Shown one piece after another: positions 14,085-62,667 of a DNA stretch of 64,000 nt. A program made the position numbers and the translations under genes. The DNA comes from Granulosicoccus sp. GTDB lineage: Bacteria > Pseudomonadota > Gammaproteobacteria > Granulosicoccales > Granulosicoccaceae. The stretch covers positions 105,887-169,886 of the forward strand of contig JBGCEH010000001.1 in the NCBI GenBank assembly GCA_045106195.1. Direction: 5' to 3'. Each line of letters starts with the position of its first letter. Positions within the stretch are counted from its first letter, which is position 1. The notes beneath the pieces are model-generated. The model worked only from the letters and a program-made list of their open reading frames with translations, had not been told where the DNA came from and did not search any database.

Positions 14085-14090
14085 TCAGCC

Positions 14091-40281: not shown

Positions 40282-41190
40282 CTAATGCAAAGTTCCCTGA
40301 GACGCAGGTCCGTCATCATTTGTGGTCTCGTTGGTGGTTATACCTTTAAACAATGCAGCAACATCAACCGGGTCATAGGCGTACAACGCATCGCAGAATT
40401 CGCAGGTGATTTCTACACTGCCCTGCTCTTCAACAATGCTGTCTACTTCGCTTTTGCCCAGGCCCGTCAGCATGCCATCGGTGCGCTCACGTGAGCAGCT
40501 GCAATGAAATAGGACAGGTTGTGGATCGAACAATCGAACACGTTCTTGGTGAAAGATTCGATGCAACAGCGTTTCTGCACTATCACGGCACAGTTCCTCG
40601 TCGGTCAGTGTCTCGCACAGAATCCTGGCACGTTGCCAACCATCGGCGTCATGATAGGTACGCTCTTCGACGGGCAGCTTCTGGATCAGGACACCGGCGG
40701 CCGAATGTTCGGATACGGCAAGGTAGAGCTCTGTAGGCAACTGTTCGCTTGTACGGAAATAGGTCTGCAGTGCGGCTGCCAGATTGTCGCCTTCCAAAGG
40801 CACGATGCCCTGGTAGGGTTCAGCCGTACGGTTGGCCTCGATGGTAATGATCATTCGCGCATCAGGACCAAATGCCGTTTGCAGATTTTTGCTGGCGGGT
40901 TCGGTACCCCAGCGCGCAAGACCACGAATATTTCCTTCGTTGGTGACTTGTACCACGAGTAGATGAATAGGTCCTTCACCACGCACTTGCAGGGTCATTT
41001 TGCCATCAAATTTTATGGTACCGGCTAACAACGTGGCTGCGACGAAAGCCTCACCCAGAATCTGCTTGACCACGGGTGGGTAGTTGGTACGGGCTGTAGC
41101 CTCTTTCCAGGTTTCATCCAGCTGCACCAGCTCTCCGCGTGCGTCACACGAATCCACCATGAATTTTTGTTGTACGTCTTGGTTGCGCAC
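40282..41190 (-). CDS. hslO: Hsp33 redox-regulated chaperone
   Basis: RGELVQL, YQGIVPL, YFRTSEQLPT, CSCSRE...CEFC. Confidence 0.96.
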   Translation of the reverse strand: MRNQDVQQKFMVDSCDARGELVQLDETWKEATARTNYPPVVKQILGEAFVAATLLAGTIKFDGKMTLQVRGEGPIHLLVVQVTNEGNIRGLARWGTEPASKNLQTAFGPDARMIITIEANRTAEPYQGIVPLEGDNLAAALQTYFRTSEQLPTELYLAVSEHSAAGVLIQKLPVEERTYHDADGWQRARILCETLTDEELCRDSAETLLHRIFHQERVRLFDPQPVLFHCSCSRERTDGMLTGLGKSEVDSIVEEQGSVEITCEFCDALYAYDPVDVAALFKGITTNETTNDDGPASQGTLH

Positions 41191-43612: not shown

Positions 43613-43622
43613 AGCCATACCC

Positions 43623-45080
43623 TCACTCAATGCCGGCTGGTGACTGCGCATGCCAGTCGGTGATCTGCTGGTATCGATGCGCAATGTTCAAAAGCTGCGC
43701 CTCTTCATAGGCAGGCGCAACCAGTTGCAGACCGATGGGTAGGCCTTCGCTAAATCCGCACGGCACAGATATACCCGGCAGACCGCTGAGATTAGCTGAT
43801 ACGGTAAACAGATCGTTCAGGTACATACTGGTGGGGTCACTGTGTTTTTCTCCGCTTTTGAAGGCGGTGGTAGGCGTTGTCGGACCCGCGATAAGATCAA
43901 CATTCTTGAAGGCTTCAGAGAAATCGTTGCTCACGAGCTGCCGCACTTGTTGAGCTTTCAGATAATAGGCATCGTAGTAGCCGGCAGACAAGGCATAAGC
44001 ACCGATCAGTATCCGGCGCTTGACCTCTTTGCCAAAGCCTTCGCCGCGCGTGCGCGTATAGAGATCTTCCAGATTTTGCGGGTTTTCGCAGCGATAGCCG
44101 AAACGTACACCGTCGAATCGCGATAGGTTGCTGGATGCTTCTGCCGGTGCTATGACATAGTAGGCTGGAATACAGTGTTGCTGGTTAGGCAAGCTGACGG
44201 GTTTTAGCACCGCACCGGCTTTTTCCAGTTCGGCAAGCGCTGACTGGACATGCGTTGCTATTACAGGGTCAAGGCCTTGACCGAAGTACTCATTAGGAAT
44301 GCCGATACGCAGACCGTTGAGATCGTTTTCGAGGGCGACACTGAAATCCGGTACCGCGGCTGTACTGCTGGTGGAATCTCTGACATCGTGTCCAGACATG
44401 GCTTGTAACAATAAAGCACAGTCTTCGGCTGTGCGGGCCATGGGTCCGCCCTGATCAAGACTGGACGCAAAGGCGATCATCCCGTAGCGCGATACTCGGC
44501 CATAGGTTGGCTTGATGCCGGTGATTCCACAGAAGGCCGCAGGTTGCCGGATGGATCCGCCCGTGTCGGTACCAGTGGCGCCAGACGCCAGTTGGGCAGC
44601 GACGAGGGCAGCACTGCCACCGGATGACCCGCCAGGCACCCTGTCGTGTTGCCAGGGATTGGCCACGGGTCCGTAGTAGCTGTTTTCGTTGGAGGATCCC
44701 ATGGCGAATTCATCCATGTTGGCCTTGCCCAGCATAACGACCCCGGCGGAACTCAGCTTGTCGACCACAGTGGCGTTATAAGGCGCTTTAAAATTCTCCA
44801 GAATTCGCGAGCCGCAGGTGGTGGCAATTCCTTTTGTACAGAAAATATCCTTGTGTGCGATGGGAATACCTGTGAGGGGGCCTGCATTTCCAGATGCGCG
44901 GGTATTGTCAGCTTTCACGGCTGCGGCTTTAGCGCCTTCCACATCCACATGCAGATAGGCATTGATTGCGGGGTTAAGGCGTTCAATGCGCTCAAGATAG
45001 TGATTGACCAGCTCCGCACTGCTTATCTCGGAAGTCTGGAGCATGGCGGCCTGCTGGGCCAGTGTCTTTTGCGAAATCAT
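43623..45080 (-). CDS. gatA: Amidotransferase subunit A
   Basis: [42 protein letters not shown]. Confidence 0.98.
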
Positions 45081-50064: not shown

Positions 50065-51270
50065 TTGGACAATCGCTTGCGATACTCACTGAGTGAATTA
50101 GAGTTAGTCGATACGTCCGGGAGTTCGGCGTACGACAATGTTACCCAATTGGCGGCCATGGTTTTTGGAACGCCAGTGTCACTTATGTCGATCATCGATC
50201 ACGAAAACAACCGCCGGTTTTTCACAAGCCAGGTAGGACTACCCTCCCCGTGGCGAGAAAAACGACAGACACCTCTGAAACACTCGTTTTGTCGGCATGT
50301 CGTAGCAGACAATGCAGTGCTGGTGATAGAAGATGCAACACAAGATGCACGGGACCAGGACAGTCTTGTGATTCCTGATCTAGGTGTAGTCGCTTATCTT
50401 GGTGCGCCTATCCATGACGCCTACGGCAGGCCAGTGGGGGCATTGTGCGTTATCGACAACAAACCGCTTTCTTGGACGGCTCGTGATATCAGTACGTTGA
50501 AGAGTCTGGCTGCCTGTGTGACGGAGGCGATCAAACTCAAGGTTGCCTACCTGGACAAGGAAGCTCTGCTATCTGATCAGACAGAGTTCAACTATTCTAT
50601 CTCTCATGACCTTAAATCGCCTGTTAGTACCGTTCAGCGGTTGCTTGATGAAATGGCCAAAAAGTGGAAATCCGGTGAGATTCAGGGGCCTGACGACCTA
50701 CTGAAAAAAACCTTGCAGACCACCCAGGCAATGCAGGTCATGATTGACGATACTCTGGACTACATACAAGTGAGCATGAGTGAAGATACGGCCAGTACCA
50801 CCGTGCCTTTGGAAACAACACTTGCGACTGTCCAAGAGCAACTATCGGACAAAATCAGTGCGAGTAAAGCGATCATATCTATCAGTAGTCTGCCGGCACT
50901 GGTTGCGGATCCCAACCTTTTAAACACCTTGTTCCGACAACTGATTTCCAATGCGATTAAATTTCGGAACCCGGAGGTGCCACCCGCTATTTCTGTCAGC
51001 TATGAAAGTCATCATACCGATTCATTTCACAAGATAGTGGTTTCTGACAATGGCATTGGCATTGATGCCGAGTATCACGATTTTATTTTTACCTTGTTTG
51101 CGCGGCTGCATACAGGTGATCAGTATTCGGGAACCGGCCTAGGGCTATCTATCTGCCGACGAATCGTCAGTTTCTACGGCGGGCGATTGGAAATTGAATC
51201 CACACCTGGCCATGGAACCCGGATGATCATTCTTCTCCCAACAGAGTGCAGCATTCGTCAGGCGGCCTAG
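50065..51270 (+). CDS. Cytoplasmic GAF-sensor histidine kinase (orphan)
   Basis: GAF (YDNVTQLAAMVFGTPVSL...SFCRHVV...YLGAPI), H-box SHDLKSP, N-box LISNAIKF, DNGIGI, GTGLGLSIC. Confidence 0.92.
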   Translation: MDNRLRYSLSELELVDTSGSSAYDNVTQLAAMVFGTPVSLMSIIDHENNRRFFTSQVGLPSPWREKRQTPLKHSFCRHVVADNAVLVIEDATQDARDQDSLVIPDLGVVAYLGAPIHDAYGRPVGALCVIDNKPLSWTARDISTLKSLAACVTEAIKLKVAYLDKEALLSDQTEFNYSISHDLKSPVSTVQRLLDEMAKKWKSGEIQGPDDLLKKTLQTTQAMQVMIDDTLDYIQVSMSEDTASTTVPLETTLATVQEQLSDKISASKAIISISSLPALVADPNLLNTLFRQLISNAIKFRNPEVPPAISVSYESHHTDSFHKIVVSDNGIGIDAEYHDFIFTLFARLHTGDQYSGTGLGLSICRRIVSFYGGRLEIESTPGHGTRMIILLPTECSIRQAA

Positions 51271-52332
51271 CTACCGCACCGATTGACCGCTTGCCTTGTC
51301 GAACAGATGCAGTGTTTCCGGATTAGCTCCAAGGTGAATATGCATACCGGGTTGCGGGGCATCGCGGCCCGGACCAGAGGCGATGACTTCATGACCGCCG
51401 ACATCCACATAGAGCAGAGTTTCTGAACCCAGGGGTTCGACCACAGTTACAGGGCCTTGCAATATGGCTTGTGATGCGTCCACCGGGAGCAAGTCGCCAG
51501 GACGGATACCGATTATCAACTCATGCGGTGCGCCACTGGAGGCAAGCTGTGTGGAGATTCTGTCTCCATTCCATAACGCGAGACCGTCGCTATCAAGCAG
51601 GCCGGGAAGCATGTTCATACTGGGCGCACCGATAAACTGCGCAACAAATGTATTGACAGGGCTGTGATACACCTCGGCTGGTGTGCCTACCTGTTGAATG
51701 TGCCCTTCTTTCATGATCACAATTCGATCAGCCATCGTCATGGCCTCAACCTGATCGTGAGTAACAAAGATGATGGTAGTGCCTACACGCTGGTGCAGCT
51801 TCTTGATCTCCAATCGCATCTGGGTACGTAGCTGAGCATCCAGATTCGACAGCGGCTCATCAAACAGGAAAACGGCAGGATCCCGGACCAATGCTCGGCC
51901 AATGGCCACACGCTGACGCTGCCCCCCGGATAGCTCATTCGGTTTTCTGTCAAGATAATCGGACATGCCTAGCAGCGTGGCTACCTCTTTCAGCTTTGCG
52001 TCTTTTTCTGCCTTGGACAGTTTTGACGTGCGCAAGCCAAAGCCGATATTTTTTTTCACACTCATGTGAGGATAGATCGCATAGTTCTGGAATACCATGG
52101 CAATATTGCGTTGCTTGGGTTCCAGGTTATTCACTACCCGATCATTGATTTCGATGGTACCGCCAGTCACATCTTCAAGCCCGGCAATCATGCGTAGCGT
52201 AGTGGACTTGCCACAACCAGATGGACCCACAAACACAACGAATTCACCGTCATTCACTTCCAGGTTGATACCGTGAAGTACGTCGGTCTTTCCGTAGCGT
52301 TTCACAAGATCACGTATGGCCAGATTTGCCAT
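51271..52332 (-). CDS. CUT1 carbohydrate ABC transporter ATPase (MalK/UgpC family)
   Basis: GPSGCGKST, AMVFQNYA, LSGGQRQRVA, FLFDEPLSNLDA, VTHDQVEAMTMAD, TOBE tail. Confidence 0.95.
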   Translation of the reverse strand: MANLAIRDLVKRYGKTDVLHGINLEVNDGEFVVFVGPSGCGKSTTLRMIAGLEDVTGGTIEINDRVVNNLEPKQRNIAMVFQNYAIYPHMSVKKNIGFGLRTSKLSKAEKDAKLKEVATLLGMSDYLDRKPNELSGGQRQRVAIGRALVRDPAVFLFDEPLSNLDAQLRTQMRLEIKKLHQRVGTTIIFVTHDQVEAMTMADRIVIMKEGHIQQVGTPAEVYHSPVNTFVAQFIGAPSMNMLPGLLDSDGLALWNGDRISTQLASSGAPHELIIGIRPGDLLPVDASQAILQGPVTVVEPLGSETLLYVDVGGHEVIASGPGRDAPQPGMHIHLGANPETLHLFDKASGQSVR

Positions 52333-52335
52333 CGT

Positions 52336-53826
52336 CTATTGCTCCAGTAGTTCTTTGAACGCGCTGTGCCGTGTTGTCTCAGCTAACGCTATTCTTTCAT
52401 GTCCTGTTGTGATGCTGTTGTCCAGTTGATTAATGCATTTTTCATAGTGCCCGATGGCCTCTTTCATTGCCGTAACTCCGGGGCCACCGAAACGGTCTCG
52501 TACCTCTACAAAATGCTGTAGGGATACGGCTGTCATAAACTCGTGTTCATCAAGTGATGTGCGGTGTCCAATGGCTGCGTCATAGGCGCGTGAAAACGCT
52601 TTATAGCCTGCCTGCAAGGTGATGCCTTGCCGGATAATCTCGTTGGCTGTGGCGGCTGCGATTTCATGTGCCTGTCGGAAGGACAAGTTTTCACGGCGTA
52701 CCAGAGTGTCTGCAAGCTCGGTGATAGTGATACAGGCGCGGTCTGCGTTCAGGCTGACCTGTTCGTTGTTGATGGTGACGGCCCGGAGGAACGAGGTGAA
52801 TAACTTCAACACACGTGCGCCACTGTCGAAAGCGGCATAGCCTGCTGCCTGCACTTCGCCTTCGCTATCGTTCATATCAGTAAATGGCGTGTTATGCATG
52901 GTATTGACTATCATGTCGCAGCGACCGGCGGTGACACTTGCCAGGTGACGCAGATGTTCAATAGGAACCGGATTGCGCTTCTGGGGCATGATCGACGAGA
53001 TTTGCACTAATGAATCGGGTACCTGTAACTGCCCTACTTCGAACGAAGACCAAAACGCCATATCCTGAATCACACGTCCAAGATGTATGAATAACAGTTT
53101 TATAGCGGAGTACAAACCGGTGATGTAATCAACCGAGGCTATGCAACCGTAACTGTTGCGTTTTGGTTCACTGAATCCCAGTAAATTGGCGATTAATTCT
53201 CGGTCAATGGGAAAACCAGACGTTGTGATCGCCGCAGCTCCCATGGGGCATAGATCGAGTAGTTCTCTTGCCGTGCAGAGTCTCTGCATATCCGATATAA
53301 GGACCTCCAGCACGGCTGCAAGGTAGTGCCCAAAAGTATCGGGCTGAGCGGGTTGTCCATGCGTGTAGGCAACGATAAGTGTTTGTCTGTCTGAATGTAT
53401 TCTCTGTTGTAGCACCCGAGCCAATGATAGGGCCAGGTCCAGCAAACTGTCACAACGCACTCGCAAGGCCATCTTGAACACCGTGTGGTCCATGTCATTG
53501 CGCGAGCGTGCGGTATGCAGCATGCCGCTCAGATCAGCCCCCAGTCTATCTTTGAGTTCTGACTCGACAAGGAAAAAATAGTCTTCATATTCTCCGGTGT
53601 ACTGCAACGCATTAACGTCCAGCTCTTCATCGATGGCCTGCAATGCTTTCGCGATTGAAACCGCTTGTGTTGTCTTCAGGATTTCACAATTGTGCAACAT
53701 CATCAGATGAGCCTTGTTAATAGCTGCCATTGATATTGCGTAGTGGGTTTTTACACCGTCAAACAAAGGCGCGAGGACAGTGTCGCGATATACCTGATCA
53801 GGAAATTTTGATGTGTCTGAACTCAT
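52336..53826 (-). CDS. Argininosuccinate-lyase-like fumarate lyase (aspartase/fumarase superfamily) inside the ABC operon
   Basis: Conserved regions HTARSRND, YTHGQPAQP, SSIMPQKRNP; ATG 53826 overlaps the permease stop (ATGA). Confidence 0.88.
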   Translation of the reverse strand: MSSDTSKFPDQVYRDTVLAPLFDGVKTHYAISMAAINKAHLMMLHNCEILKTTQAVSIAKALQAIDEELDVNALQYTGEYEDYFFLVESELKDRLGADLSGMLHTARSRNDMDHTVFKMALRVRCDSLLDLALSLARVLQQRIHSDRQTLIVAYTHGQPAQPDTFGHYLAAVLEVLISDMQRLCTARELLDLCPMGAAAITTSGFPIDRELIANLLGFSEPKRNSYGCIASVDYITGLYSAIKLLFIHLGRVIQDMAFWSSFEVGQLQVPDSLVQISSIMPQKRNPVPIEHLRHLASVTAGRCDMIVNTMHNTPFTDMNDSEGEVQAAGYAAFDSGARVLKLFTSFLRAVTINNEQVSLNADRACITITELADTLVRRENLSFRQAHEIAAATANEIIRQGITLQAGYKAFSRAYDAAIGHRTSLDEHEFMTAVSLQHFVEVRDRFGGPGVTAMKEAIGHYEKCINQLDNSITTGHERIALAETTRHSAFKELLEQ

Positions 53827-54737
53827 CCTTTCAAGCCCGCCATCACAACTCCACGAATAATGAAACGTTGAAACACCAGAAACACCACCAGGGTTGGTAA
53901 TACCGAAATGGCAGCACCTGTCATGATCAGTTCCCATTCAACGGATTGTTCTACGCTGAAGGTAGTCAAGCCAACAGGCAAGGTGTACATATCCTGACTA
54001 TTGGTGACGATGAGCGGCCAGATAAAAGCCGTCCAGTTGCCGAGGAAAACAAAGATAGCCAAAGCGGCAAGCGCAGGCTTCACCAGTGGCATCGCGACGC
54101 TCCACCAGATTTGCAATTCGTTTAGCCCATCGATGCGCGCAGCCTCAATAAAATCGTCAGGTACCGTTTCAAAGAACTGCTTCATCAGGAAAACGCCGAA
54201 CGCTGTCATCAGACCCGGAAACATAATGCCCCAGGTAGTATCCAGCCAACCAAACTGTTGCGACATCAGATACCAGGGAATCACCAGCATCTCAGTAGGA
54301 ATCATGAGCGTGGACAGTATGGCGATAAACACGAGGTAGCGCCCACGAAAGCGGAACTTACACAAGGTATATCCCACCAGTGAATCGAACAACACGTTGG
54401 AGATGGTGGTCAGCGTCGCGATCGTTAACGAATTCCAGAACCAGCGCATGAAGCGCCCGTCACTCATGACATAGGTATAGTTCTCGAACGTTGGCTCTTC
54501 GGGTATGAGGTTGAGGTTGTAGACTTCGAATGGAAACTTAAAGGATGTTGATAGCATATAGGCTAGCGGCATGACCATCAGAACACCACCGGAAAACAAC
54601 AGTATCCAGCGAATAAACTGTGCCCATTGGCGCTTCGGTTTGCCAACGACAACCACCGTGCTCGTGGTTAGCAAGGCTTCTGAACTTGCCTTGATGGCCA
54701 GATTATCCGACTCGTTGGCTGCTTGAGATACCGCCAC
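53823..54737 (-). CDS. Carbohydrate ABC transporter permease (MalG-like)
   Basis: WFWNSL, FRFRGR, LMIPTEMLVIP, EAARIDG, WTAFIWPLI. Confidence 0.94.
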   Translation of the reverse strand: MAVSQAANESDNLAIKASSEALLTTSTVVVVGKPKRQWAQFIRWILLFSGGVLMVMPLAYMLSTSFKFPFEVYNLNLIPEEPTFENYTYVMSDGRFMRWFWNSLTIATLTTISNVLFDSLVGYTLCKFRFRGRYLVFIAILSTLMIPTEMLVIPWYLMSQQFGWLDTTWGIMFPGLMTAFGVFLMKQFFETVPDDFIEAARIDGLNELQIWWSVAMPLVKPALAALAIFVFLGNWTAFIWPLIVTNSQDMYTLPVGLTTFSVEQSVEWELIMTGAAISVLPTLVVFLVFQRFIIRGVVMAGLKG

Positions 54738-55631
54738 CTACGTATCCTTCAGCAATCTGAGCTGGAGCAGGCTTACGATAAGTAGGACAACAAAAAGTAC
54801 TACCGTTTGAGCCGCGGCATAGCCCATATCGAACGAGTTGAACGCCGTATCGTAAATCATCAACACCAATGGCTTGGTGGAATTCAACGGACCACCCGGG
54901 TTATTGGTGGTCATGTTGAACACATGATCAAATATGCGAAGAAAGCCGATTGAAGAGAACACCACAAGAAACACGATAGTGGGTTTTAACAGGGGCAAGG
55001 TAATCTCTCTCAGGATAGTCCAGCTCGATACGCCGTCAATGTAGGCCGCCTCATAGTAGGTCTTGGGTATGGCTCGCAGACCAGCCATGAAAATGATGAC
55101 CTGAAACCCCAGGCCTGCCCAGATGGCAGGTGCAAGGACACTCGGCAAGGCGTTCGTTGTCGAGTTGAGAAAGGCTACTTGCGAGACGCCAAACTGCGCC
55201 AGAAAATTGTTGAACAAACCAATCGGTACCGGTTGGTAGAACCATCGCCAAACCCAGGCCATAGCAACCGCGCTGGTCATGAAGGGCAGGAAATACAAGG
55301 CGCGCAAGGTACCATGCAAAAAACGCACTTTATCCAGGTGAAAGGCAATGAAGAAGGCGAGCACCAGAGAAACAGGCGTGCCAATCAGCAAATAGATAAA
55401 GGTGTTGGAAAATACCTTCCAGAAGACCGGATCCTGAAACAACGTGGTGTAGTTGCTCAGGCCCGACCATGTGCGGGCACCCAGAAGGTTCCATTCCTGA
55501 AAGGACAGGATGATGGCATTGGCGGTTGGATAGAAACGAACCACCACATAGAACACGATGGGCACCGCCAGAAAACCCCACGCCCATAGCGTGTGTTTCT
55601 GACGGATAGACAGATCCGAATAGAAACTCAT
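54738..55631 (-). CDS. Carbohydrate ABC transporter permease (MalF-like)
   Basis: GLSNY..LF.DP.FW, LYFLP, YYEAAYIDG, ITLPLLKP, FDMGYAAA. Confidence 0.94.
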   Translation of the reverse strand: MSFYSDLSIRQKHTLWAWGFLAVPIVFYVVVRFYPTANAIILSFQEWNLLGARTWSGLSNYTTLFQDPVFWKVFSNTFIYLLIGTPVSLVLAFFIAFHLDKVRFLHGTLRALYFLPFMTSAVAMAWVWRWFYQPVPIGLFNNFLAQFGVSQVAFLNSTTNALPSVLAPAIWAGLGFQVIIFMAGLRAIPKTYYEAAYIDGVSSWTILREITLPLLKPTIVFLVVFSSIGFLRIFDHVFNMTTNNPGGPLNSTKPLVLMIYDTAFNSFDMGYAAAQTVVLFVVLLIVSLLQLRLLKDT

Positions 55632-55662
55632 ACCATTCTTGTCGAGTTACCCAAACAACTCA

Positions 55663-56919
55663 CTACTTGTAAAAACCATCCAGGATAGCCTGCTCACCTT
55701 CTGCTGCAACGCTCAGACTCTCTTCTACGGATTGGCCTTCCAGGTTAATGCGACTGACCATATCGGTCATGAGCTGACGTTGGCCACTTTCATCGACAAA
55801 GACCGTCGATTGGGCATAACCCAGACCTTTGACGAATGGACCATACACGGGATCTGCTGTGTTTTCCTCGGTTAATGCGGCGGAGGGTTTCGCAGGGAGC
55901 TCACCCACGGTCTCCAGCCATACTTGCATGGCCTCATCTGAGGTGATGTATTCCATGAATTTCAACGACGCGGCATATTTATCACCTTCTGCCTTGCTGG
56001 TGATGGCGTTGACCCAATAGGAGGAGTAATTGGACTGAGTGCCGTCGGGGCCGGCTGGCAGCTCCGCCACTCCCCACTTCAAACCCCGAGTCTTGTCCAG
56101 CGCTCCGATGCGGAAAGAGCCATCGATGTGCATACCTGCCCTACCCGCCTTGAAGGCGGCTTGTGGCTCGTCCATAAACGTACTTTGCGTAACTTCATGT
56201 GTCTGTTCAAGATCAACATACCATTGCAGTGCTTTTTGCCCTGCCTCTGAATTGTAAGCCACCGTGGTATTGTCATCGCTGTATGGGGTTCCTCCAAACT
56301 GCCGCACTAGCACTTCGCGCCACCAATGATGATCCTGTGCAGTCATACCTGATGTTATGCCCACTTGAGTAATGTTGCCTGCACCATCGCGTTTGGTCAG
56401 CTTTTTCGCTGTCTCGACCAGCTCATCGAGAGTGGCAGGCGGAGACTCGATTCCTGCTTCATCAAACAGGCGCTCGTTGTAGAACAAGGCCAGCGAACGA
56501 ACAGCTGTCGGCAACGCCATGTATTCACCCTCTCGCTTCATGGCCTGGACCATGGGAAAGAACTCTTCATCAATGGATTGTGGGGGAAACTGATCGGCGG
56601 GTAATGGTTGGATAAGCTTTGCATCGACATAGTCATTCAACCACCCATAAAACAACTGGACCACATCGGGCCCTTCGCCCGCCGGTATGGCGGCTGCGAC
56701 TTTGGTTCGATAGTCAGCATAAGGAAATTGATTGGTTTTGACGGTAATACCCGGATTGGCTGCTTGAAAATTCTCGATCAAAGTGTCCATGGCCGTAACA
56801 CGTGCTTCAAAAAAGTACTGCCAGTATTCGATTTCCACTTCGGCACGTGCACCACTGGCTGCAGCCAGAAGTGCTGATAAACCCGTGGTCAGTAGCAGTT
56901 TTCGGTGTTTGATCATCAT
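55663..56919 (-). CDS. Periplasmic solute-binding protein (CUT1 / SBP family 1)
   Basis: Signal peptide ...AAASGARA, FQAANPGITV, GEGPDVV, LFYNERLF, AFKAGRAGMHIDGSF. Confidence 0.93.
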   Translation of the reverse strand: MMIKHRKLLLTTGLSALLAAASGARAEVEIEYWQYFFEARVTAMDTLIENFQAANPGITVKTNQFPYADYRTKVAAAIPAGEGPDVVQLFYGWLNDYVDAKLIQPLPADQFPPQSIDEEFFPMVQAMKREGEYMALPTAVRSLALFYNERLFDEAGIESPPATLDELVETAKKLTKRDGAGNITQVGITSGMTAQDHHWWREVLVRQFGGTPYSDDNTTVAYNSEAGQKALQWYVDLEQTHEVTQSTFMDEPQAAFKAGRAGMHIDGSFRIGALDKTRGLKWGVAELPAGPDGTQSNYSSYWVNAITSKAEGDKYAASLKFMEYITSDEAMQVWLETVGELPAKPSAALTEENTADPVYGPFVKGLGYAQSTVFVDESGQRQLMTDMVSRINLEGQSVEESLSVAAEGEQAILDGFYK

Positions 56920-57129
56920 TTTTCTCCTTGGTGAGACGCTCGCAGGAAAACGGGCGTGGCATGACGCATTTCTATCGGTGCTTCATGTTTAACCGATCCA
57001 AGAGTAAGTTACAAGCTTGTGGAGGCGTACGCCTGTATGCGCATATCTTTTTATTTCGTCAAACTGCACAACGTCTAACTCGCTTGATATGCTCAGATGT
57101 CCCGAGTAGCAGCTGTGCGGAGCGCTGGA

Positions 57130-59541
57130 ATGTCACTGGAGGATCGACAACGGCTGGAAGAGGATTTGCGCTGTCCGCGTATCGTTCAGTTGCACATGGC
57201 GCTGGTGCGTTTACGCTCGTGCATCAAATTCATGAACAGCGGTGCGCACCCTGATGATGAGACGTCGGCCTTGCTGGCAGCGCTTGCCTATCGGGATGGC
57301 TTCGATATTTCCTATGCATGCGCCAATCGTGGTGAAGGAGGTCAGAACGATATCGGTACCGAATCCAGCGCCATGCTGGGAACAGTGCGTACCGCGGAGA
57401 TGGAAGCCGCTGCCAGAGTACTGGACTTGCGGCTCTACTGGCTCTCCACTCATCCACAGGACACTATCTTCGATTTCGGATTTTCCAAAAGTGGGCACGA
57501 GACATTACGCAAGTGGGGGCATGAGCGAACCCTGCAACGCTTTGTAAGCATTGTGCGTCGCGAGCAGCCAGACATCCTGTGTCCGACGTTTCTGGATATA
57601 CCGGGGCAACATGGGCATCACCGGGCGATGACCGCCATGGCTTACGCGGTTATGGAGCGAGCAGCAGACAAGGATTATCGTGTCGACGGATCAAACGATC
57701 CAGCCTGGCAGATCAGCAAACTGTTTCTGCCTGCCTGGGGTGGAGGTGGCAACGCTTATGATGATGAAGAGCCACCTCCTGAAGAAACGCTGCGAGTCTC
57801 TGCCAGTGGGCGGGATCCGGTAACGGGGTGGAGCTGGGAAAATCTGGGCCAACAGTCAAGAAAGTTTCACCTGACGCAGGGAATGGGACGCTGGGTAATG
57901 AGTGGCGATGAGCGTGACTGGCCATTGCATCTGGCCAAAACAGCGCTTGACGTACCGTGTGAACCTACCCGTTCTCTGGAGAGTGGTCTGGCTTATGACT
58001 TTACTCAATGGGCTGAACGTGAAGATAACGGTCAATTAGCAAGTCAGCTGTTAAACGTTCACGAGGCCCTCACGGCAACGGTTATCGGGTTTCCTGACTT
58101 CAGGGCGGTCACTGAAAACGGATTTGCTGCCATAAGTTCGATTAACCAGGCAAGGCAACTGGCGCAATCCACTGCAAATCCGGTTCTGGATAACAGACTA
58201 GCCCGCAAACAGGCGCAAGTTACCAGAGCCATAATGCTTGCCAGCGGTGTCAGGGCAACAGTCTGGACACCGCGTACCCTATGGCGACCCGGTGATGTCA
58301 GTGACATAAACATTGATGTGAATAAGCCGGATGTGCCAGGTGTTCACTACGAAGTAGGGGTCTTGAGTTCGTTCGCACAGCCAGAGAATTCCCCCTGGCA
58401 AATTGAAGGTAGTTCCTTGTCGTTGAGTCAATCCGCATCACTTGAATCACCCTACCCTGATATCTGGCTTGCTGATGAGCCAACAGGGCCTGTCGTGCAA
58501 GTCAAACTTGACTACAAATGTATCAGTACGAGTTACTACCAGCCGCTGGAAGTGCCACCGATTGTTCTGTCATCAGTCAGTGCGCAGCTCACTCCAGATG
58601 TTTTTCTTGTAAACCTGGAGAGGCCACCGGTGGCATTGACTGTCAATGTGAACAAACGTCATCCTGACCATGCCATGGCACTTTTCTCTCTTCCTGAAGG
58701 CTGGTCGCAGGAGGCAGTAGATAATCAGCTGAAGCTGAGCATGGCATCAACTCTGGAAGCCGGGTTATATGAGCTGCCACTTCAACTCGATGACTGTCAA
58801 GCAAACGATGAGCGGCTACTCAACTATTCTCATATAAAGCCCAGAGTGTTCAGCAAGCCTTCCGTTCTGCGTGTGCGTGCAACGGCTATAGCACTACCCG
58901 ATGTTCGTATCGGTTATGTGGGAGGCGGTAACGACAGGGTTGCAGTCTGGCTTCGGGCGATGGGTTTTGACGTTCATGAGATCAGTGACGAAGAGCTTGT
59001 TGATGGTGATGCTCTCGCGCAAGCATTAATTACAATAGACACTCTGGTCGTGGGCGTATTTGCCTATCGGATGCGAAACTCTCTGGCAAGCCTTGCCCCG
59101 ACTATCAACAGCTGGGTTGAATCAGGCGGGCACTTGCTAACGCTTTACCACCGTCCCTGGGACAACTGGCATCCGGATCTAATCCCACCGGCAAGGCTCG
59201 AGATTGGACAACCCTCACTACGGTACCGGGTGACTGATGAAAATGCAGATGTAACGTACTTGCAGGAAGATCATTCCGTACTTCATTTTCCGAATGTCAT
59301 TCAGGACGATGACTGGCAAGGATGGCACAAGGAGCGTGGGCTTTATTTTGCAAAGTCGTGGGACAGTTGCTATGCCCCGATTCTGTCAATGAAAGATCCT
59401 GAGGAGCTACCCCATGAGGGCGCACTGTTAGTAGCTACTATAGGAGAAGGCCAGCACATACATACATCACTAATTCTTCACCACCAAATGGACATGCTTG
59501 TTCCAGGTGCTTTCAGGCTAATGGCAAATCTTCTTGCCTGA
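57130..59541 (+). CDS. Large PIG-L/LmbE-family zinc deacetylase/amidase with GATase-like C-terminal domain
   Basis: GAHPDDE, NRGEGGQN.IG.E, HGHH metal motifs; C-terminal IGYVGGGND...GGHLLTLYHRPWDNW...W.GWHKERGLYF; no signal peptide; ATG 57130 (track 57097). Confidence 0.9.
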   Translation: MSLEDRQRLEEDLRCPRIVQLHMALVRLRSCIKFMNSGAHPDDETSALLAALAYRDGFDISYACANRGEGGQNDIGTESSAMLGTVRTAEMEAAARVLDLRLYWLSTHPQDTIFDFGFSKSGHETLRKWGHERTLQRFVSIVRREQPDILCPTFLDIPGQHGHHRAMTAMAYAVMERAADKDYRVDGSNDPAWQISKLFLPAWGGGGNAYDDEEPPPEETLRVSASGRDPVTGWSWENLGQQSRKFHLTQGMGRWVMSGDERDWPLHLAKTALDVPCEPTRSLESGLAYDFTQWAEREDNGQLASQLLNVHEALTATVIGFPDFRAVTENGFAAISSINQARQLAQSTANPVLDNRLARKQAQVTRAIMLASGVRATVWTPRTLWRPGDVSDINIDVNKPDVPGVHYEVGVLSSFAQPENSPWQIEGSSLSLSQSASLESPYPDIWLADEPTGPVVQVKLDYKCISTSYYQPLEVPPIVLSSVSAQLTPDVFLVNLERPPVALTVNVNKRHPDHAMALFSLPEGWSQEAVDNQLKLSMASTLEAGLYELPLQLDDCQANDERLLNYSHIKPRVFSKPSVLRVRATAIALPDVRIGYVGGGNDRVAVWLRAMGFDVHEISDEELVDGDALAQALITIDTLVVGVFAYRMRNSLASLAPTINSWVESGGHLLTLYHRPWDNWHPDLIPPARLEIGQPSLRYRVTDENADVTYLQEDHSVLHFPNVIQDDDWQGWHKERGLYFAKSWDSCYAPILSMKDPEELPHEGALLVATIGEGQHIHTSLILHHQMDMLVPGAFRLMANLLA

Positions 59542-59754: not shown

Positions 59755-62118
59755 TCATGCAGGATCACATGCGAGCATGCCGTTCAGGATGCTTATTGTT
59801 CCCGAACACTTGATTCCCTGATGTCCCGATTCTAATATATTGGCTTTAGGCAGCCTTACCACGAAACGAGCACCATCCGTGTAATTGGTATCCACATGTA
59901 TCGACCCCTCATGGATATTCACGATTCGCCGGCAGATTGACAGACCCAGTCCTGACCCCTCAACGTCCTTTTTCTTATTCAACCTCACGGACGGTTTGAA
60001 TACCTGATCAGCGTACTTGACAGGGATTCCAATCCCATTGTCGGACACAGATATTTCTATCCATTGATTGTCAACATCAATACTATCTACTCTTATGACA
60101 GCATGTTTATTATTTGCTGTGTAATTTAGAGCGTTGCAGATCAAATTGAGAAACAAACTGGTAATCAGACTTTTCTCACCGATTACGTGATGGCTGATAT
60201 CAATCAATATGGTCGCGTCATCATGCGCTACCTGCGTCTTTGTTACCTTTTGGATGTCGCTGAAAATTTCTGCCAGATCAGTCGGCGCAAACGCTTGAGC
60301 TGCGTCAGGTACGCTCATGTAATCAAGTATCCCGGCAGTAAAATTCTTCAATATACGGGTTGAGTCTTTCGCGAGATCGTGCCATTCACGCATCGTATCA
60401 GCATCGAATTTGTCTTCTTCCATGACATTCAGCGCCATTTCAATCTGACGCAATGGTGCCTTTATATCGTGTGCGGCTGCACTTGCCGCAAAAGATTTCA
60501 AACGTGAGCTCTCTTCTGCCCGTATCAGTACTGAGACAAGAATATCGAGAAATTCTCTTACAATTTCCCGGGCAATGATCAGTTCTGCATCTGTCCAGGC
60601 CTGAGAAAAATCATTGTGTTCACCAATCCATCCGGCCAAAGAGTTTCGCGACATCAAGGCGGCGGTACCATCGTGTCCCTCGGCATTAAATTTAGCCGTT
60701 ACCTCTTCAGCCCAATCGATATTTTCCGCTAAGGGCCTACGGAACCAGATCATCTGGCAAGTCCGATGAAGAGCGATAGGTTGAAGCAGCACACCGCAAG
60801 CTGAATCTCTATGTTGTTCAGCCTCGGGCCAGTGCCTGTGTAGAGAACAGGTCTGATATTGTTCCCTCTCATCAGCCTCTGCGCGCACCCATTCAATAAG
60901 CTCAGGTATGAACTCCCTGGGAGGGGTGTGTCCCGTTAGATGAATCTCATCACCGTATTGAAAAGCAAATCCATCCGCATCCATAAACTTCATTAGCGAT
61001 GGACCAAACTCGTCAACAACATCCATAAGTTTGCCTTTTTGCCGCAAATCGCTGGCCAGGTTAATTTCCATCTTGCGTAAGTCCAGAACCCTCTTACTGG
61101 CAATGCGCTTTACGTCATGTGCGATTCGATTTGAAAGGGCAAGGCCCAACTCCCGCAGCGAAGTCCACAAGTCAAAAGGCAAAGCTCTGGACTCATCATG
61201 ATGACAAACGATTAAGCCCCAAGGCTTGCCATCGAGAAAAAGACTTATCGAAAACGATGCTTCGACCTCCATGTTCTGCAAATAGCAAGTGTGCATCGAT
61301 GATACCGAACGCAGTAAAGAATAATTGAGGTCCGGAGGAACCTCATTGTTTTGTGAATACTGCAAAATATCATGCGTCTCACCATGCGCACTGAATATTG
61401 CGCAATATGGCACTGAATTGAACAAGGCGCGTGCTTGCCTGGATATATCAGTATCAGGAAAATGCAAACCCAGAAAGCTGGGCATATGCTCTTCACGGGA
61501 TTCAGCGACGACCCTAACCGACCAGTCGGGCAGATATTGATAGATTTTCACACGGGAAAAACCTGTTATATCACGCGTTGCATTACAGGCAATCTGCAGC
61601 GATTCATCAAGAGTCGTTGAACTCAATATACGATCACATTCCCGCGAAATAACGCGCATACCCCGCCTCACATCATGCACATCAAGATGAGAAGCAGGCA
61701 TAAGTTCGATCACCCAGCGGGCCTGGTAACCATGAACAACAACATCGAAGACAGTACTTTTATTCATGATCTGTACATCAAGAACGCTATGGACACCAAT
61801 CTGATCTGGGTCAAGTTCTGAAAGCTCAGCGGTTAGCGCCTCTATCCAGTCTTTATCAAAATCTGACAAAGAGGTATCCAGTATGTCAACGTGACCTATG
61901 CCAAGAATATCAAGCATGTTTCGACTATACGCAACGATACTCAACGCGCTTTGACAAACAATCAACATGGCACCTTCACACTGCACTGCGCCAAGTAAAC
62001 GCACTTGCTCACGATGGCAAGGATTAATTTCTGTCTGAGGAGTCTGGCTGAAAAATGTAGAAAGTGAAGCAACACTCTCTTCAGGTAGCTGTTCTTGAAT
62101 CTTGATAGCTGTTTTCAT
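59755..62118 (-). CDS. Bacteriophytochrome-like PAS-GAF-PHY histidine kinase with atypical motifs
   Basis: NPCHREQV..LGAVQ.EG, RVKIYQY, FLGLHFPDTDISRQARALF, LRSVSSMH..YLQNM, WGLIVCHH, MDADG, H-box AHDIKAP, N/G boxes; ATG 62118 (track 62211). Confidence 0.9.
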   Translation of the reverse strand: MKTAIKIQEQLPEESVASLSTFFSQTPQTEINPCHREQVRLLGAVQCEGAMLIVCQSALSIVAYSRNMLDILGIGHVDILDTSLSDFDKDWIEALTAELSELDPDQIGVHSVLDVQIMNKSTVFDVVVHGYQARWVIELMPASHLDVHDVRRGMRVISRECDRILSSTTLDESLQIACNATRDITGFSRVKIYQYLPDWSVRVVAESREEHMPSFLGLHFPDTDISRQARALFNSVPYCAIFSAHGETHDILQYSQNNEVPPDLNYSLLRSVSSMHTCYLQNMEVEASFSISLFLDGKPWGLIVCHHDESRALPFDLWTSLRELGLALSNRIAHDVKRIASKRVLDLRKMEINLASDLRQKGKLMDVVDEFGPSLMKFMDADGFAFQYGDEIHLTGHTPPREFIPELIEWVRAEADEREQYQTCSLHRHWPEAEQHRDSACGVLLQPIALHRTCQMIWFRRPLAENIDWAEEVTAKFNAEGHDGTAALMSRNSLAGWIGEHNDFSQAWTDAELIIAREIVREFLDILVSVLIRAEESSRLKSFAASAAAHDIKAPLRQIEMALNVMEEDKFDADTMREWHDLAKDSTRILKNFTAGILDYMSVPDAAQAFAPTDLAEIFSDIQKVTKTQVAHDDATILIDISHHVIGEKSLITSLFLNLICNALNYTANNKHAVIRVDSIDVDNQWIEISVSDNGIGIPVKYADQVFKPSVRLNKKKDVEGSGLGLSICRRIVNIHEGSIHVDTNYTDGARFVVRLPKANILESGHQGIKCSGTISILNGMLACDPA

Positions 62119-62667
62119 TTGTAGACTAGTTTTTTCAATATTGGTTTTCAAACAATTCCAAATAACTTGCCTGTAAGACTCGACTCCACAGTCTTGTCTA
62201 TGTTCGAACATCCGAACCGTCCATCGACACCAACAGGAATTTTCATGATGCTTTTTAGCACTGGCAATAGCTGCACAAAAAATACCAAAACCTGTTTATA
62301 TCAGCGCGCGCGTAACCGATATTATCTGTCCATCGTATTCCAGACTGTAACTAGTGTAGTGGAACATACAAAATGTACATTCAGATTTATAACAGTTACA
62401 AGGATATGAAAAAGGCATTAACCCTGCTTTGATTTCACGAAAAAAAAGTATTATGCGAAAACGCCAAAACACAATAGAGAACTCAGGCCAACCGAGTGCC
62501 GTACTCAAATCATGAATTCTGGAAGACGTTTTTGATCGATTTCGTCTATTTAAAAAGTGAATTTCCGGGACGATGCCATCGACTGAGTACAACCAAAACG
62601 ATCATTGATCAAAATTGCTAGCCAACTCACCATTTCATTGCGTAAGAGCCGGGATGCAGAAGGCGAC

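What the first reader, a model, noticed from the sequence alone, without database searches (positions are those of the whole stretch)
51271..59541. Probable undescribed catabolic system: sugar-type ABC importer + fumarate lyase + divergent PIG-L amidase
Seen: SBP-permease-permease-lyase-ATPase form a tightly coupled operon (abutting, ATGA overlap, 3-bp gap), divergent from an 803-aa PIG-L enzyme; no kinase, glycosidase or regulator is present. Established: CUT1 systems import sugars or sugar conjugates. Aspartase/fumarase-superfamily enzymes of this type eliminate fumarate from N- or O-succinyl substrates (argininosuccinate, adenylosuccinate, EDDS, iminodisuccinate). PIG-L/LmbE enzymes (MshB, Mca, BshB, Bca) hydrolyse N-acyl-glucosamine amides, and BshB acts on GlcNAc-malate. 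Inference: the substrate is a sugar carrying an aspartyl/malyl (succinyl) group, e.g. N-acyl-glucosaminyl-malate (bacillithiol-type) or a sugar-aspartate Amadori/opine-like compound, deacylated and then cleaved to amino sugar plus fumarate.
Basis: partly seen in the sequence, partly recalled or inferred. Interest (0 to 1): 0.72.

Follow-up and report, generated by a model that had tools for sequence, protein, structure and literature searches.

The report
Glucosamine-conjugate importer with fumarate-type lyase
This is a widespread but unstudied gene cluster, mislabelled as an arginine-synthesis gene in public genomes, that most likely lets plant-, alga- and soil-associated bacteria import a glucosamine compound carrying a malate- or aspartate-like group and split it into glucosamine and fumarate.

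Summary
Five genes for a binding protein, two permeases, an ArgH-like lyase and an ATPase form one tightly packed minus-strand operon, divergent from an 803-aa PIG-L protein.

The link is not chance. All 48 related genome loci with enough flank carry the large PIG-L gene opposite the transporter-lyase operon. The same cluster sits on plasmids of Aminobacter, Rhizobium, Agrobacterium and Rhodobacterales.

Most relatives also encode a ROK regulator, a PfkB kinase and a DMT transporter, which the window lacks.

The lyase is not housekeeping ArgH:
- It keeps the catalytic and fumarate-side motifs.
- The loop that binds the arginine half in ArgH is replaced by an invariant acidic loop.
- It shares about 31% identity with a chromosomal ArgH.

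Orthologous transporter-lyase cores elsewhere are followed by sugar kinases plus NagB or NagB-II glucosamine-6-phosphate deaminase. This points to glucosamine as the product.

The substrate is unproven. My favoured candidate is GlcN(Ac)-malate or bacillithiol. The main rival is an N-(glucos-2-yl)aspartate-type compound. I found no paper describing the system.

The parts
55663..56919 (-). Periplasmic solute-binding protein of a CUT1 (sugar-type) ABC importer, 418 aa, with an N-terminal signal peptide
   Evidence: SBP_bac_8 5e-43 and SBP_bac_1 1e-36. Best solved relatives are maltose/acarbose-type binding proteins, only at 7e-26. It is 51-60% identical to the SBPs of all variant clusters.
54738..55631 (-). 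ABC permease 1 (UgpA/MalF-like), 297 aa
   Evidence: BPD_transp_1; UgpA model 1e-29.
53823..54737 (-). ABC permease 2 (UgpE/MalG-like), 304 aa. Its GTG start abuts the permease 1 stop.
   Evidence: BPD_transp_1; junction read.
52336..53826 (-). ArgH-like lyase of the aspartase/fumarase superfamily, 496 aa. It has the family-specific acidic loop MHNTPFTDMNDSEGEVQ (residues 310-326).
   Evidence: Lyase_1 + ASL_C2. TIGR00838 scores 294 bits against a cut-off of 279.5. Motif analysis. ATGA overlap with permease 2.
51271..52332 (-). ABC ATPase of MalK/UgpC type with a TOBE regulatory domain, 353 aa
   Evidence: ABC_tran, OB_MalK and TOBE_2; UgpC subfamily model at 488 bits; 3-bp gap after the lyase.
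56920..57129 (.). Divergent intergenic region between the transporter operon and the PIG-L gene. It presumably holds both promoters.
   Evidence: Sequence read. The consensus promoter/terminator scan found nothing above chance. In relatives a ROK regulator gene lies between this region and the PIG-L gene.
57130..59541 (+). Multidomain cytoplasmic PIG-L/LmbE-family protein, 803 aa. Domains: N-terminal Zn-deacetylase/amidase domain (about 57217-57999), helical linker, two Ig-like/NEW3 beta-sandwiches (about 58252-58884), and a C-terminal GATase1-like alpha/beta domain (about 58897-59538).
   Evidence: PIG-L at 62.5 bits. AlphaFold model with pLDDT 88. Foldseek hits to MshB (2.5e-8), diacetylchitobiose deacetylase and BshB. 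AHPDDE and HGHH motifs are invariant, and the C-terminal domain has many invariant H/D/E/R/W residues. Weak NPCBM_assoc and DUF4350 hits in some homologues.

Best explanation
This is an accessory, horizontally mobile uptake-and-breakdown module for a glucosamine-based conjugate that carries a 1,2-dicarboxyethyl (malyl or aspartyl) group.

Proposed steps:
1. The periplasmic binding protein captures the compound, and the CUT1 ABC transporter imports it.
2. Where the compound is N-acylated, the PIG-L domain of the 803-aa protein removes the acyl group from the sugar 2-amino group. The acyl group could be acetyl or an amino-acyl group such as cysteinyl.
3. The ArgH-like lyase, encoded between the permease and ATPase genes, carries out an anti beta-elimination. 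This releases fumarate and free glucosamine.
4. Glucosamine is phosphorylated. Most relatives use a PfkB kinase, others a ROK or BadF kinase, and this genome presumably uses a kinase encoded elsewhere.
5. GlcN-6-P deaminase converts the product to fructose-6-phosphate.

My preferred concrete substrate is alpha-D-glucosaminyl-(1->2)-L-malate and its N-acyl forms (GlcNAc-malate, bacillithiol). This is the only known natural compound family I can name that combines these parts. In that case the lyase would cleave a C-O bond.

Shown: gene order, domains, conservation of the cluster, conservation of the catalytic motifs, and the link to GlcN-6-P deaminases.

Inferred: every chemical step and the identity of the substrate.

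I put about 0.6 on the general statement (GlcN conjugate giving GlcN + fumarate) and about 0.3-0.35 on the malate/bacillithiol version. The confidence figure below is a blend of the two.
For: (1) Conserved cluster. PIG-L is present in 48/48 close-orthologue loci with enough flank, ROK in 45/48, PfkB in 42/50 and DMT in 26/47. The same nine genes lie on plasmids of Aminobacter and Parasedimentitalea. Even a Bacillus plasmid pairs a 35%-identical lyase with a full-length 31%-identical large PIG-L protein.

(2) Lyase motifs. The lyase keeps R109/N110 (RSRND), T155/H156 (YTH) and S277/K283/N285/E290 (SSIMPQKRNP..E). These are the catalytic and fumarate-side residues of ASL. The ASL residues Y323, K325, Q328 and K331 are replaced by D, N, E and V inside an invariant acidic loop. 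Such a loop suits an ammonium- or hydroxyl-rich leaving group.

(3) Variant clusters. Orthologous cores (SBP 51-60% identical, lyase 50-61%) are followed by different glucosamine genes:
- a ROK kinase plus a NagB-II GlcN-6-P deaminase at 313 bits
- a ROK-family protein (403 aa) plus classical nagB
- in the distant Bacillus version, a MurK/NagK-like kinase at 3.5e-41

(4) PIG-L fold. The closest folds are GlcNAc-glycoside deacetylases: MshB, chitobiose deacetylase and BshB.

(5) C-O precedent. The XcbC model describes an ASL-like protein family annotated as acting on phosphosulfolactate. It scores 162 bits to this lyase, so this clade is not limited to C-N cleavage. That XcbC works by eliminating the phosphate is my own knowledge.

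(6) System precedent. A Lyase_1 enzyme that releases fumarate, encoded in an ABC-transporter locus together with a deacetylase, is known from the 2SL/yxe system (PMC9706529).
Against: - No substrate has been tested.
- The PIG-L domain is no closer to BshB/Bca than to other family members. It gives no significant sequence hit to any solved structure.
- Some orthologous cores lack PIG-L altogether, so deacylation is optional.
- The characterised enzymes closest by sequence (ASL, EDDS lyase) cleave C-N bonds.
- In Paroceanicella a GH9 glycosidase sits in the PIG-L position. This hints at beta-linked glucosamine oligosaccharides rather than an alpha-malyl glycoside.
- No cysteine or sulfur genes are conserved nearby.
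- The function of the strongly conserved C-terminal domain of the PIG-L protein is unexplained.
Confidence: 0.45

Rival explanations
1. The substrate is an N-linked sugar-aspartate, N-(2-deoxy-D-glucos-2-yl)-L-aspartate. This would be a Heyns-type or opine-like compound from plant or algal material. The lyase cleaves the C-N bond as ASL and EDDS lyase do, giving glucosamine plus fumarate. PIG-L serves only related N-acetylated compounds or oligomers.
For: - The closest characterised enzymes by sequence, ASL and EDDS lyase, are C-N lyases.
- Clusters with only regulator, transporter and lyase exist, and they need no deacylase.
- NagB or NagB-II downstream fits glucosamine as the product.
- The carriers are plant-, alga- and soil-associated.
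- More distant relatives of the lyase sit in Opp-type (peptide/opine-type) importers.
Against: - A 2-N-alkylated glucosamine has no 2-N-acyl group, so it does not explain why PIG-L is present in 48/48 close orthologue loci.
- To my knowledge this compound is not an established abundant natural product.
Confidence: 0.25
2. The system takes up chitin- or chitosan-derived oligosaccharides (GlcN/GlcNAc dimers). PIG-L acts as a chitobiose deacetylase, as in archaeal chitin pathways. The lyase has some other role that does not release fumarate.
For: - Weak sequence hits and fold hits to diacetylchitobiose deacetylases.
- A GH9 glycosidase occupies the PIG-L position in Paroceanicella.
- The combination of ROK regulator, CUT1 transporter, kinase and NagB resembles chitosan-oligosaccharide loci (own knowledge, not tested here).
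Against: - It gives no role to the most conserved enzyme of the module. The lyase keeps every dicarboxylate-binding and catalytic motif of fumarate-releasing lyases.
- No glycosidase is conserved in the cluster.
Confidence: 0.1
3. The substrate is an Amadori compound such as fructose-aspartate. The lyase gives fructosamine plus fumarate, followed by a kinase and a deglycase.
For: - PfkB kinases give weak hits to the fructoselysine 6-kinase model, at 48-60 bits.
- CUT1 importers carry mannityl and fructosyl opines in Agrobacterium (own knowledge).
Against: - The SIS partner is NagB-II-like at 313 bits, against 27 bits for the FrlB deglycase model.
- A classical NagB occurs in another variant.
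- PIG-L and a MurK/NagK-like kinase point to 2-amino sugars.
Confidence: 0.05
4. The lyase is an ordinary argininosuccinate lyase for arginine synthesis that happens to lie inside a sugar transporter operon, as RefSeq annotates it.
For: It passes the TIGR00838 argH cut-off, 294 bits against 279.5, and is named argH in RefSeq records.
Against: - The arginine-binding residues Y323, Q328 and K331 are replaced.
- None of its 150 nearest 50%-identity cluster representatives has the canonical ASL loop.
- It shares about 31% identity with a chromosomal ArgH, for example that of Acinetobacter, and there is a sharp identity gap between orthologues (50% or more) and everything else (35% or less).
- It is plasmid-borne and patchy in distribution.
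- It is always embedded in the transporter operon.
Confidence: 0.02

Closest known systems
Argininosuccinate lyase (ArgH / delta-crystallin, EC 4.3.2.1)
   Same: - Same fold and domain pair, Lyase_1 + ASL_C2.
- The catalytic Ser loop (SSIMPQK.NP), the T-H motif, the RSRND motif and the Glu of the charge relay are all conserved.
- Best solved relative: T. thermophilus ASL at 1.3e-55.
   Different: - About 35 residues longer at the C-terminus.
- YTHLQRAQP is replaced by YTHGQPAQP.
- The loop LP..YNKDLQEDKE, which holds Y323/Q328/K331, is replaced by the invariant loop HNTPFTDMNDSEGE. The role of those three residues in binding the arginine half comes from the UniProt/structure literature as I recall it.
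- It is encoded inside an ABC importer operon, often on plasmids.
EDDS lyase of Chelativorans sp. BNC1 (PDB 6G3D)
   Same: An ASL-like protein of about 500 aa with a matching C-terminal extension (aligned up to residue 455). It cleaves an N-substituted aspartate to give fumarate plus an amine.
   Different: It scores only 145 bits, lower than true ASL. The acidic loop region does not align. Its substrate is an aminopolycarboxylate, not a sugar.
S-(2-succino) lyase (2SL) in yxe-type loci (PMC9706529)
   Same: The same system logic: a Lyase_1 enzyme that releases fumarate from an imported conjugate, encoded with an ABC transporter and an N-deacetylase.
   Different: It cleaves a C-S bond in N-acetyl-S-(2-succino)cysteine, with an amino-acid-type transporter and an M20 deacetylase. 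I could not compare sequences because I had no 2SL sequence.
Bacillithiol enzymes BshB and Bca (PIG-L family), and MshB/Mca
   Same: The PIG-L fold with the AHPDD metal motif, acting on 2-N-acyl-glucosaminides. BshB's substrate is GlcNAc-malate, which would fit the lyase chemistry.
   Different: - BshB/Bca are single-domain proteins of about 220-240 aa.
- This protein has 803 aa, with two beta-sandwich domains and a conserved GATase1-like C-terminal domain.
- It gives no significant sequence match to them.
- The carriers are mostly Proteobacteria, which are not known to make bacillithiol.
Chitosan/chitobiose utilisation loci (Streptomyces csnR-K, Vibrio chb, the archaeal Dac pathway)
   Same: A ROK regulator, a CUT1 importer, a sugar kinase, a GlcN-6-P deaminase and (in archaea) a PIG-L deacetylase, all feeding glucosamine into glycolysis (own knowledge; partners seen).
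   Different: Those loci contain a glycosidase and no fumarate-type lyase. Here the lyase is the invariant enzyme and glycosidases are absent, apart from one GH9.

Membership tests
Argininosuccinate lyase (ArgH) | Lyase_1 fold with ASL C-terminal domain, and the catalytic Ser/His/Lys motifs | tested here: met
   Pfam Lyase_1 9e-40 and ASL_C2 2e-9. S277, H156, K283, N285 and E290 align to S283, H162, K289, N291 and E296 of duck delta-2 crystallin.
Argininosuccinate lyase (ArgH) | Residues that hold the arginine half of the substrate (Y323, Q328, K331 in the YNKDLQEDK loop) | tested here: not met
   They are replaced by D317, E322 and V325 within an invariant family-specific loop. None of the 150 nearest cluster representatives has the canonical loop.
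Argininosuccinate lyase (ArgH) | Score above the curated equivalog cut-off | tested here: inconclusive
   TIGR00838 gives 294.4 bits against a cut-off of 279.5, a bare pass. Three other ArgH equivalog models fail by a wide margin (320/883, 197/657, 57/388), as does the ArgH subfamily model (239/625).
Argininosuccinate lyase (ArgH) | Housekeeping role: universal, chromosomal, and the only copy in the genome | tested here: not met
   - Always embedded in the ABC operon.
- On plasmids in 27 records with 50% or more identity.
- Patchy taxonomic distribution.
- Presence of a second, canonical argH in this particular genome could not be checked.
Argininosuccinate lyase (ArgH) | Cleaves argininosuccinate to arginine + fumarate | not testable with these tools
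   Needs an enzyme assay or argH complementation.
CUT1 (carbohydrate uptake 1) ABC importer | An SBP of family 1/8, two BPD_transp_1 permeases, and a MalK/UgpC-type ATPase with a TOBE domain | tested here: met
   Signal peptide seen in the SBP translation.
PIG-L / LmbE zinc deacetylase-amidase family | Pfam PIG-L domain, the AHPDD metal/base motif, a second His motif, and the Rossmann-like fold of MshB/BshB | tested here: met
   - 62.5 bits against a cut-off of 28.2.
- A39-H40-P41-D42-D43 and H161..H163-H164 are invariant in 38 homologues.
- Foldseek hits to MshB (2.5e-8), chitobiose deacetylase (6e-7) and BshB (5e-6).
PIG-L / LmbE zinc deacetylase-amidase family | Hydrolyses the 2-N-acyl group of a glucosaminide | not testable with these tools
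   Needs an assay. The context with GlcN kinases and deaminases in relatives is consistent with it.
Bacillithiol enzymes BshB/Bca | Single-domain protein of about 220-240 aa with specific sequence similarity to BshB/Bca | tested here: not met
   This is an 803-aa multidomain protein. It gives no PDB sequence hit at E<0.01. The only NCBIfam hit is Mca at 25.6 bits, far below the cut-off of 277.
EDDS lyase | Close sequence relationship, including the amine-side pocket | tested here: not met
   145 bits, lower than true ASLs. The loop region is not alignable.
S-(2-succino) lyase (2SL) / yxe system | Sequence orthology to 2SL, with yxe-type acetyltransferase and amino-acid ABC genes | not tested
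   I had no 2SL sequence. The yxe partner genes are absent from the cluster. Only the system logic is shared.

The most novel reading that the evidence does not exclude
The cluster is the first catabolic or scavenging pathway for bacillithiol-type compounds (bacillithiol, GlcNAc-malate, GlcN-malate). Bacteria that do not make bacillithiol would use it. Its key step would be a new enzyme activity: an ArgH-like lyase that breaks a glycosidic C-O bond by eliminating fumarate and releasing glucosamine. It would also show that low-molecular-weight thiols of Firmicutes and Bacteroidota are traded as nutrients on plant, algal and soil surfaces.
Probability: 0.3. Interest if true: 0.8.

Novelty: new variant of a known kind. 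Interest (0 to 1): 0.6.

Why it matters
- Misannotation. A discrete and widespread orthologous group is annotated in RefSeq as argH, with a GO term for arginine biosynthesis. It covers Granulosicoccus, many Rhodobacterales and Hyphomicrobiales, and plasmids of Rhizobium, Agrobacterium and Aminobacter. The label is almost certainly wrong and distorts metabolic reconstructions.
- A large uncharacterised clade. The lyase belongs to a mostly uncharacterised clade of ArgH-like proteins of about 500 aa that are repeatedly embedded in ABC importers of different classes. Solving one member would open the whole clade.
- An unrecognised nutrient. The substrate is probably a nutrient exchanged on plant, algal and soil surfaces that has not been recognised. 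If it is bacillithiol or GlcN-malate, this would answer how that abundant thiol is degraded, and would add a new way of cleaving a glycoside.
- Ready for testing. The predicted chemistry can be tested directly with a simple A240 fumarate assay.

Tried and rejected
- Literature. Four full-text searches on combinations of argininosuccinate lyase, PIG-L/LmbE, ROK, sugar ABC, GlcN-Mal and bacillithiol catabolism found nothing describing this system. A search for ASL active-site residue lists was also unhelpful.
- C-terminal domain of the PIG-L protein. Folding it alone gave a poor model (pLDDT 63), and its Foldseek search gave no significant match. The whole-protein search was dominated by the PIG-L and Ig-like domains. 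Only weak DUF4350 and DMFA2_C hits suggest a GATase1-like domain.
- EDDS lyase. Two PDB searches aimed at showing whether it shares the acidic loop found that the loop does not align.
- Locus L061. Its apparent 35%-identity lyase is a fragmented gene in a long-read metagenome-assembled genome and is not informative.
- Promoter/terminator scan: at chance level.
- RNA data: no clear RNA run holds the locus.
- Kinase. The PfkB kinase of relatives is not close to any characterised kinase.
- Canonical argH. I could not check for a second, canonical argH in the window's own genome. The only direct case of two lyase homologues in one record is a 5.5-Mb Bacillus record carrying a distant variant.

Full report
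**1. The observation**

The region holds six intact genes. Five lie on the minus strand:
- SBP, 55663-56919
- permease 1, 54738-55631
- permease 2, 53823-54737
- lyase, 52336-53826
- ATPase, 51271-52332

A PIG-L protein lies divergently on the plus strand at 57130-59541. That gives 803 aa; the longest ORF starts at 57097.

I read the junctions from the sequence:
- The permease 1 stop is followed at once by the GTG start of permease 2.
- The permease 2 stop and the lyase start share ATGA.
- Three bases separate the lyase stop from the ATPase start.

The transporter is of CUT1 type, with a MalK/UgpC ATPase at 488 bits. The lyase has Lyase_1 + ASL_C2. The PIG-L domain scores 62.5 bits against a cut-off of 28.2.

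The window cluster has no regulator, kinase or glycosidase. Its flanks are a GAF histidine kinase (50065-51270) and a bacteriophytochrome kinase (59755-62211). Further out lie housekeeping genes: gatA/gatB, Hsp33 and a PNP oxidase.

**2. Is the association real?**

The lyase has thousands of homologues. The closest are Granulosicoccus proteins at 70-79% identity. Next come many Rhodobacterales and Hyphomicrobiales at 62-70%. So the window is very likely from a Granulosicoccus-like gammaproteobacterium. The exact sequence occurs in plant- or host-associated metagenomes.

A scan of one genome per species returned 58 loci. I mapped reference proteins onto them and clustered all ORFs. This gives one conserved layout:

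DMT(EamA) <- PIG-L <- ROK | SBP -> permease -> permease -> (VOC protein in 5 loci) -> lyase -> ATPase -> PfkB kinase

Counting only loci with enough flank:

| Gene | Present |
|---|---|
| PIG-L | 48/48 |
| ROK | 45/48 |
| PfkB | 42/50 |
| DMT | 26/47 |

No other gene family recurs within 10 kb. The window and its two closest relatives (L004, L005) are a reduced form without ROK, DMT and PfkB.

The same cluster lies on plasmids or chromids of several genera. These include Aminobacter, Parasedimentitalea, Loktanella, Roseinatronobacter, Qingshengfaniella, Rhizobium, Neorhizobium, Agrobacterium pusense and Thalassospira. In every case it is annotated 'argH', 'PIG-L family deacetylase', 'ROK', 'PfkB' and 'DMT'.

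**3. The lyase is not ArgH**

It barely passes the argH equivalog model, 294 bits against 279.5, and fails the other ArgH models.

I aligned it to solved ASLs and checked conservation across 55 orthologues. Everything needed to bind a succinyl moiety and eliminate fumarate is retained:
- RSRND (R109, N110)
- YTH (T155, H156)
- the serine loop SSIMPQKRNP (S277, K283, N285)
- E290

The ASL loop LP.(T/A)YNKDLQEDKE is replaced by the invariant MHNTPFTDMNDSEGEVQ. So Y323->D, K325->N, Q328->E and K331->V. As I recall the UniProt and structural literature, Y323, Q328 and K331 hold the arginine half of argininosuccinate. An acidic loop suits a cationic or polyhydroxylated leaving group.

Further points:
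- None of the 150 nearest 50%-identity cluster representatives has the canonical ASL loop. Most are proteins of about 500 aa with related P(F/Y)GD(I/V)ND-type loops.
- In the plasmid collection there is a clean gap between orthologues (50-64% identity) and everything else (35% or less).
- A chromosomal ArgH, for example that of Acinetobacter, is about 31% identical.
- EDDS lyase shares the longer C-terminus but not the loop.

**4. The wider clade sits in importers**

More distant relatives of about 500 aa are also encoded inside ABC importer operons:

| Relative | Identity | Context |
|---|---|---|
| P0243 | 47% | GntR regulator and a CUT1 system |
| P0244 | 44% | CUT1, same gene order |
| P0246 | 47% | CUT1 + Amidohydro_2 hydrolase + ROK + MFS |
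| P0250 | 39% | Opp-type system |
| Bacillus sp. F19 plasmid | 35% | AfuA-like ABC system |

The Bacillus plasmid is notable. It also has two ROK regulators, a creatininase-family hydrolase, a MurK/NagK-like BadF kinase (3.5e-41 to MurK) and a full-length homologue of the large PIG-L protein at 31% identity. So the lyase/PIG-L pairing is older than the Proteobacteria-Firmicutes split, or has crossed it.

**5. What comes out of the pathway**

Some plasmids carry orthologous transporter-lyase cores (SBP 51-60% identical, permeases 58-71%, lyase 50-61%) with different accessory genes:
- Roseomonas: ROK regulator, core, ROK sugar kinase, and a SIS protein that matches NagB-II glucosamine-6-phosphate deaminase. 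It scores 313 bits to NagB-II, 220 bits to the solved Shewanella enzyme, and only 27 bits to the FrlB deglycase model.
- Paroceanicella: ROK regulator, core, a ROK-family protein and classical nagB, with a GH9 glycosidase in the position PIG-L usually occupies.
- Shinella and Bosea: only a LacI-type regulator, the transporter and the lyase.
- Terrarubrum: an MBL-fold hydrolase and a DMT transporter.

Two unrelated GlcN-6-P deaminases and three unrelated kinase families (PfkB, ROK, BadF) have been recruited next to the same core. This is the strongest evidence that the pathway ends in glucosamine -> GlcN-6-P -> fructose-6-P.

The lyase is the one invariant enzyme. The hydrolase partner varies and is optional.

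**6. The PIG-L protein**

An AlphaFold model built from 38 homologues is confident, with pLDDT 88. It shows these parts:
- an N-terminal PIG-L domain
- a helical linker
- two Ig-like/NEW3 beta-sandwiches
- a C-terminal alpha/beta domain

The PIG-L domain matches MshB, diacetylchitobiose deacetylases, BshB and teicoplanin deacetylase by fold. It matches none of them significantly by sequence. The metal/base motif AHPDDE and an HGHH motif are invariant.

The C-terminal domain has about 40 invariant residues, many of them His, Asp, Glu, Arg or Trp, so it probably binds or processes something. I could not identify it. There are only weak DUF4350 and DMFA2_C (GATase1-like) hits and no structural match. 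The protein has no signal peptide, so it acts in the cytoplasm.

**7. Most likely mechanism**

Proposed steps:
1. The importer takes up a glucosamine conjugate that carries a 1,2-dicarboxyethyl group.
2. Where present, PIG-L removes a 2-N-acyl group.
3. The lyase eliminates fumarate and frees glucosamine.
4. A kinase and a deaminase feed the product into glycolysis.

The DMT transporter is co-transcribed with PIG-L in most relatives. It may export the released acyl or amino-acid part, but that is speculation.

For the substrate I favour GlcN-alpha(1->2)-L-malate and its N-acyl forms (GlcNAc-malate, bacillithiol):
- They are the only known natural compounds I can name that combine exactly these parts.
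- BshB and Bca are PIG-L enzymes that act on them.
- The XcbC model (ASL-like, annotated as acting on phosphosulfolactate) scores 162 bits to this lyase. That XcbC works by eliminating the phosphate, a C-O cleavage, is my own knowledge.

The main rival is an N-linked N-(glucos-2-yl)aspartate of Heyns or opine type. It fits the C-N chemistry of the closest characterised enzymes and the lyase-only clusters. It leaves the PIG-L association unexplained.

Less likely readings are chitooligosaccharide uptake, Amadori compounds and true ArgH, for the reasons given in the rival explanations.

I put about 0.6 on 'GlcN conjugate -> GlcN + fumarate' and about 0.3-0.35 on the malate/bacillithiol version.

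**8. Comparison with known systems, and novelty**

By fold and catalytic motifs the lyase is an ASL-clade member. It fails the ArgH membership test on substrate-binding residues and on genomic role.

By system logic the closest precedent is the 2SL/yxe pathway. There a Lyase_1 enzyme in an ABC-transporter locus with a deacetylase releases fumarate from N-acetyl-S-(2-succino)cysteine (PMC9706529).

The downstream half resembles chitosan and GlcNAc utilisation loci.

I found no paper on this cluster. I rate it a new variant of a known kind: an importer-coupled catabolic operon with a fumarate-releasing lyase, with a probably new substrate and possibly a new bond-cleavage type.

**9. Verdict**

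The architecture, the co-occurrence and the 'amino sugar + fumarate' idea hold. The substrate is unproven and PIG-L is accessory rather than essential.
- Interest 0.6. This is a clean, testable enzyme-discovery target that is widely misannotated, with a realistic chance of revealing an unknown nutrient or the first bacillithiol breakdown route.

Noticed in passing
window 59755-62211 (-) and 50065-51270 (+): The cluster is bracketed by two sensor kinases. One is a bacteriophytochrome-type histidine kinase (PAS_2-GAF-PHY-HATPase, 818 aa). The other is a GAF-HisKA-HATPase kinase (401 aa) that converges on the ABC ATPase gene with no gap between the two stop codons (51270/51271). In relatives a ROK regulator occupies the regulatory position, so control of the cluster in this genome is open.
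   Followed up: partly
L056-type RefSeq records, e.g. L070 10977-12491 and L071 9998-11482: RefSeq/PGAP names this lyase 'argH, argininosuccinate lyase' with the GO term 'arginine biosynthetic process via ornithine', and names the ATPase 'UgpC sn-glycerol-3-phosphate transporter'. Both labels are probably wrong for this orthologous group and recur in the annotated plasmid records checked here.
   Followed up: yes
P0241-P0390; loci L062, L064, L065, L068, L072: A large and diverse clade of ArgH-like proteins of about 500 aa carries P(F/Y)GD(I/V)ND-type loops instead of the ASL YNKDLQEDK loop. Every member I looked up lies inside an ABC importer operon (CUT1, Opp-type or AfuA-like). This looks like a general, uncharacterised class of importer-coupled lyases.
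   Followed up: partly
L072 (Bacillus sp. F19 plasmid) 1831-14418: A Firmicute version of the system: two ROK regulators, an AfuA/PhnS-like ABC importer, a creatininase-family hydrolase, an ArgH-like lyase, a MurK/NagK-like kinase and an 837-aa PIG-L/NEW3 protein, next to conjugation and recombinase genes.
   Followed up: partly
L001 9555-10004; also L015, L042, L044, L047: In five loci a small VOC/glyoxalase-family protein (149 aa) is inserted between permease 2 and the lyase. Its role is unknown. The VOC family includes thiol-dependent enzymes.
   Followed up: no
window 58897-59538 (C-terminal domain of the PIG-L protein): This domain of about 215 aa is more conserved than the PIG-L domain itself (73% mean column identity, about 70 invariant positions out of 219). 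It has no confident match in Pfam or the PDB. It is likely a second functional site of unknown activity.
   Followed up: partly
L076 (Paroceanicella profunda plasmid) 1204-3573: A GH9 glycoside hydrolase occupies the position downstream of the ROK regulator where the PIG-L gene normally sits. GH9 includes exo-beta-glucosaminidases (own knowledge), which hints that some versions handle beta-linked glucosamine oligomers.
   Followed up: no
window 38838-39626, 34321-36447, 42176-45080, 40282-41190: Housekeeping genes upstream of the cluster: a siderophore-interacting protein, polyphosphate kinase, gatB/gatA and Hsp33. These suggest the cluster is chromosomal in this organism, although it is plasmid-borne in many Alphaproteobacteria.
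   Followed up: no
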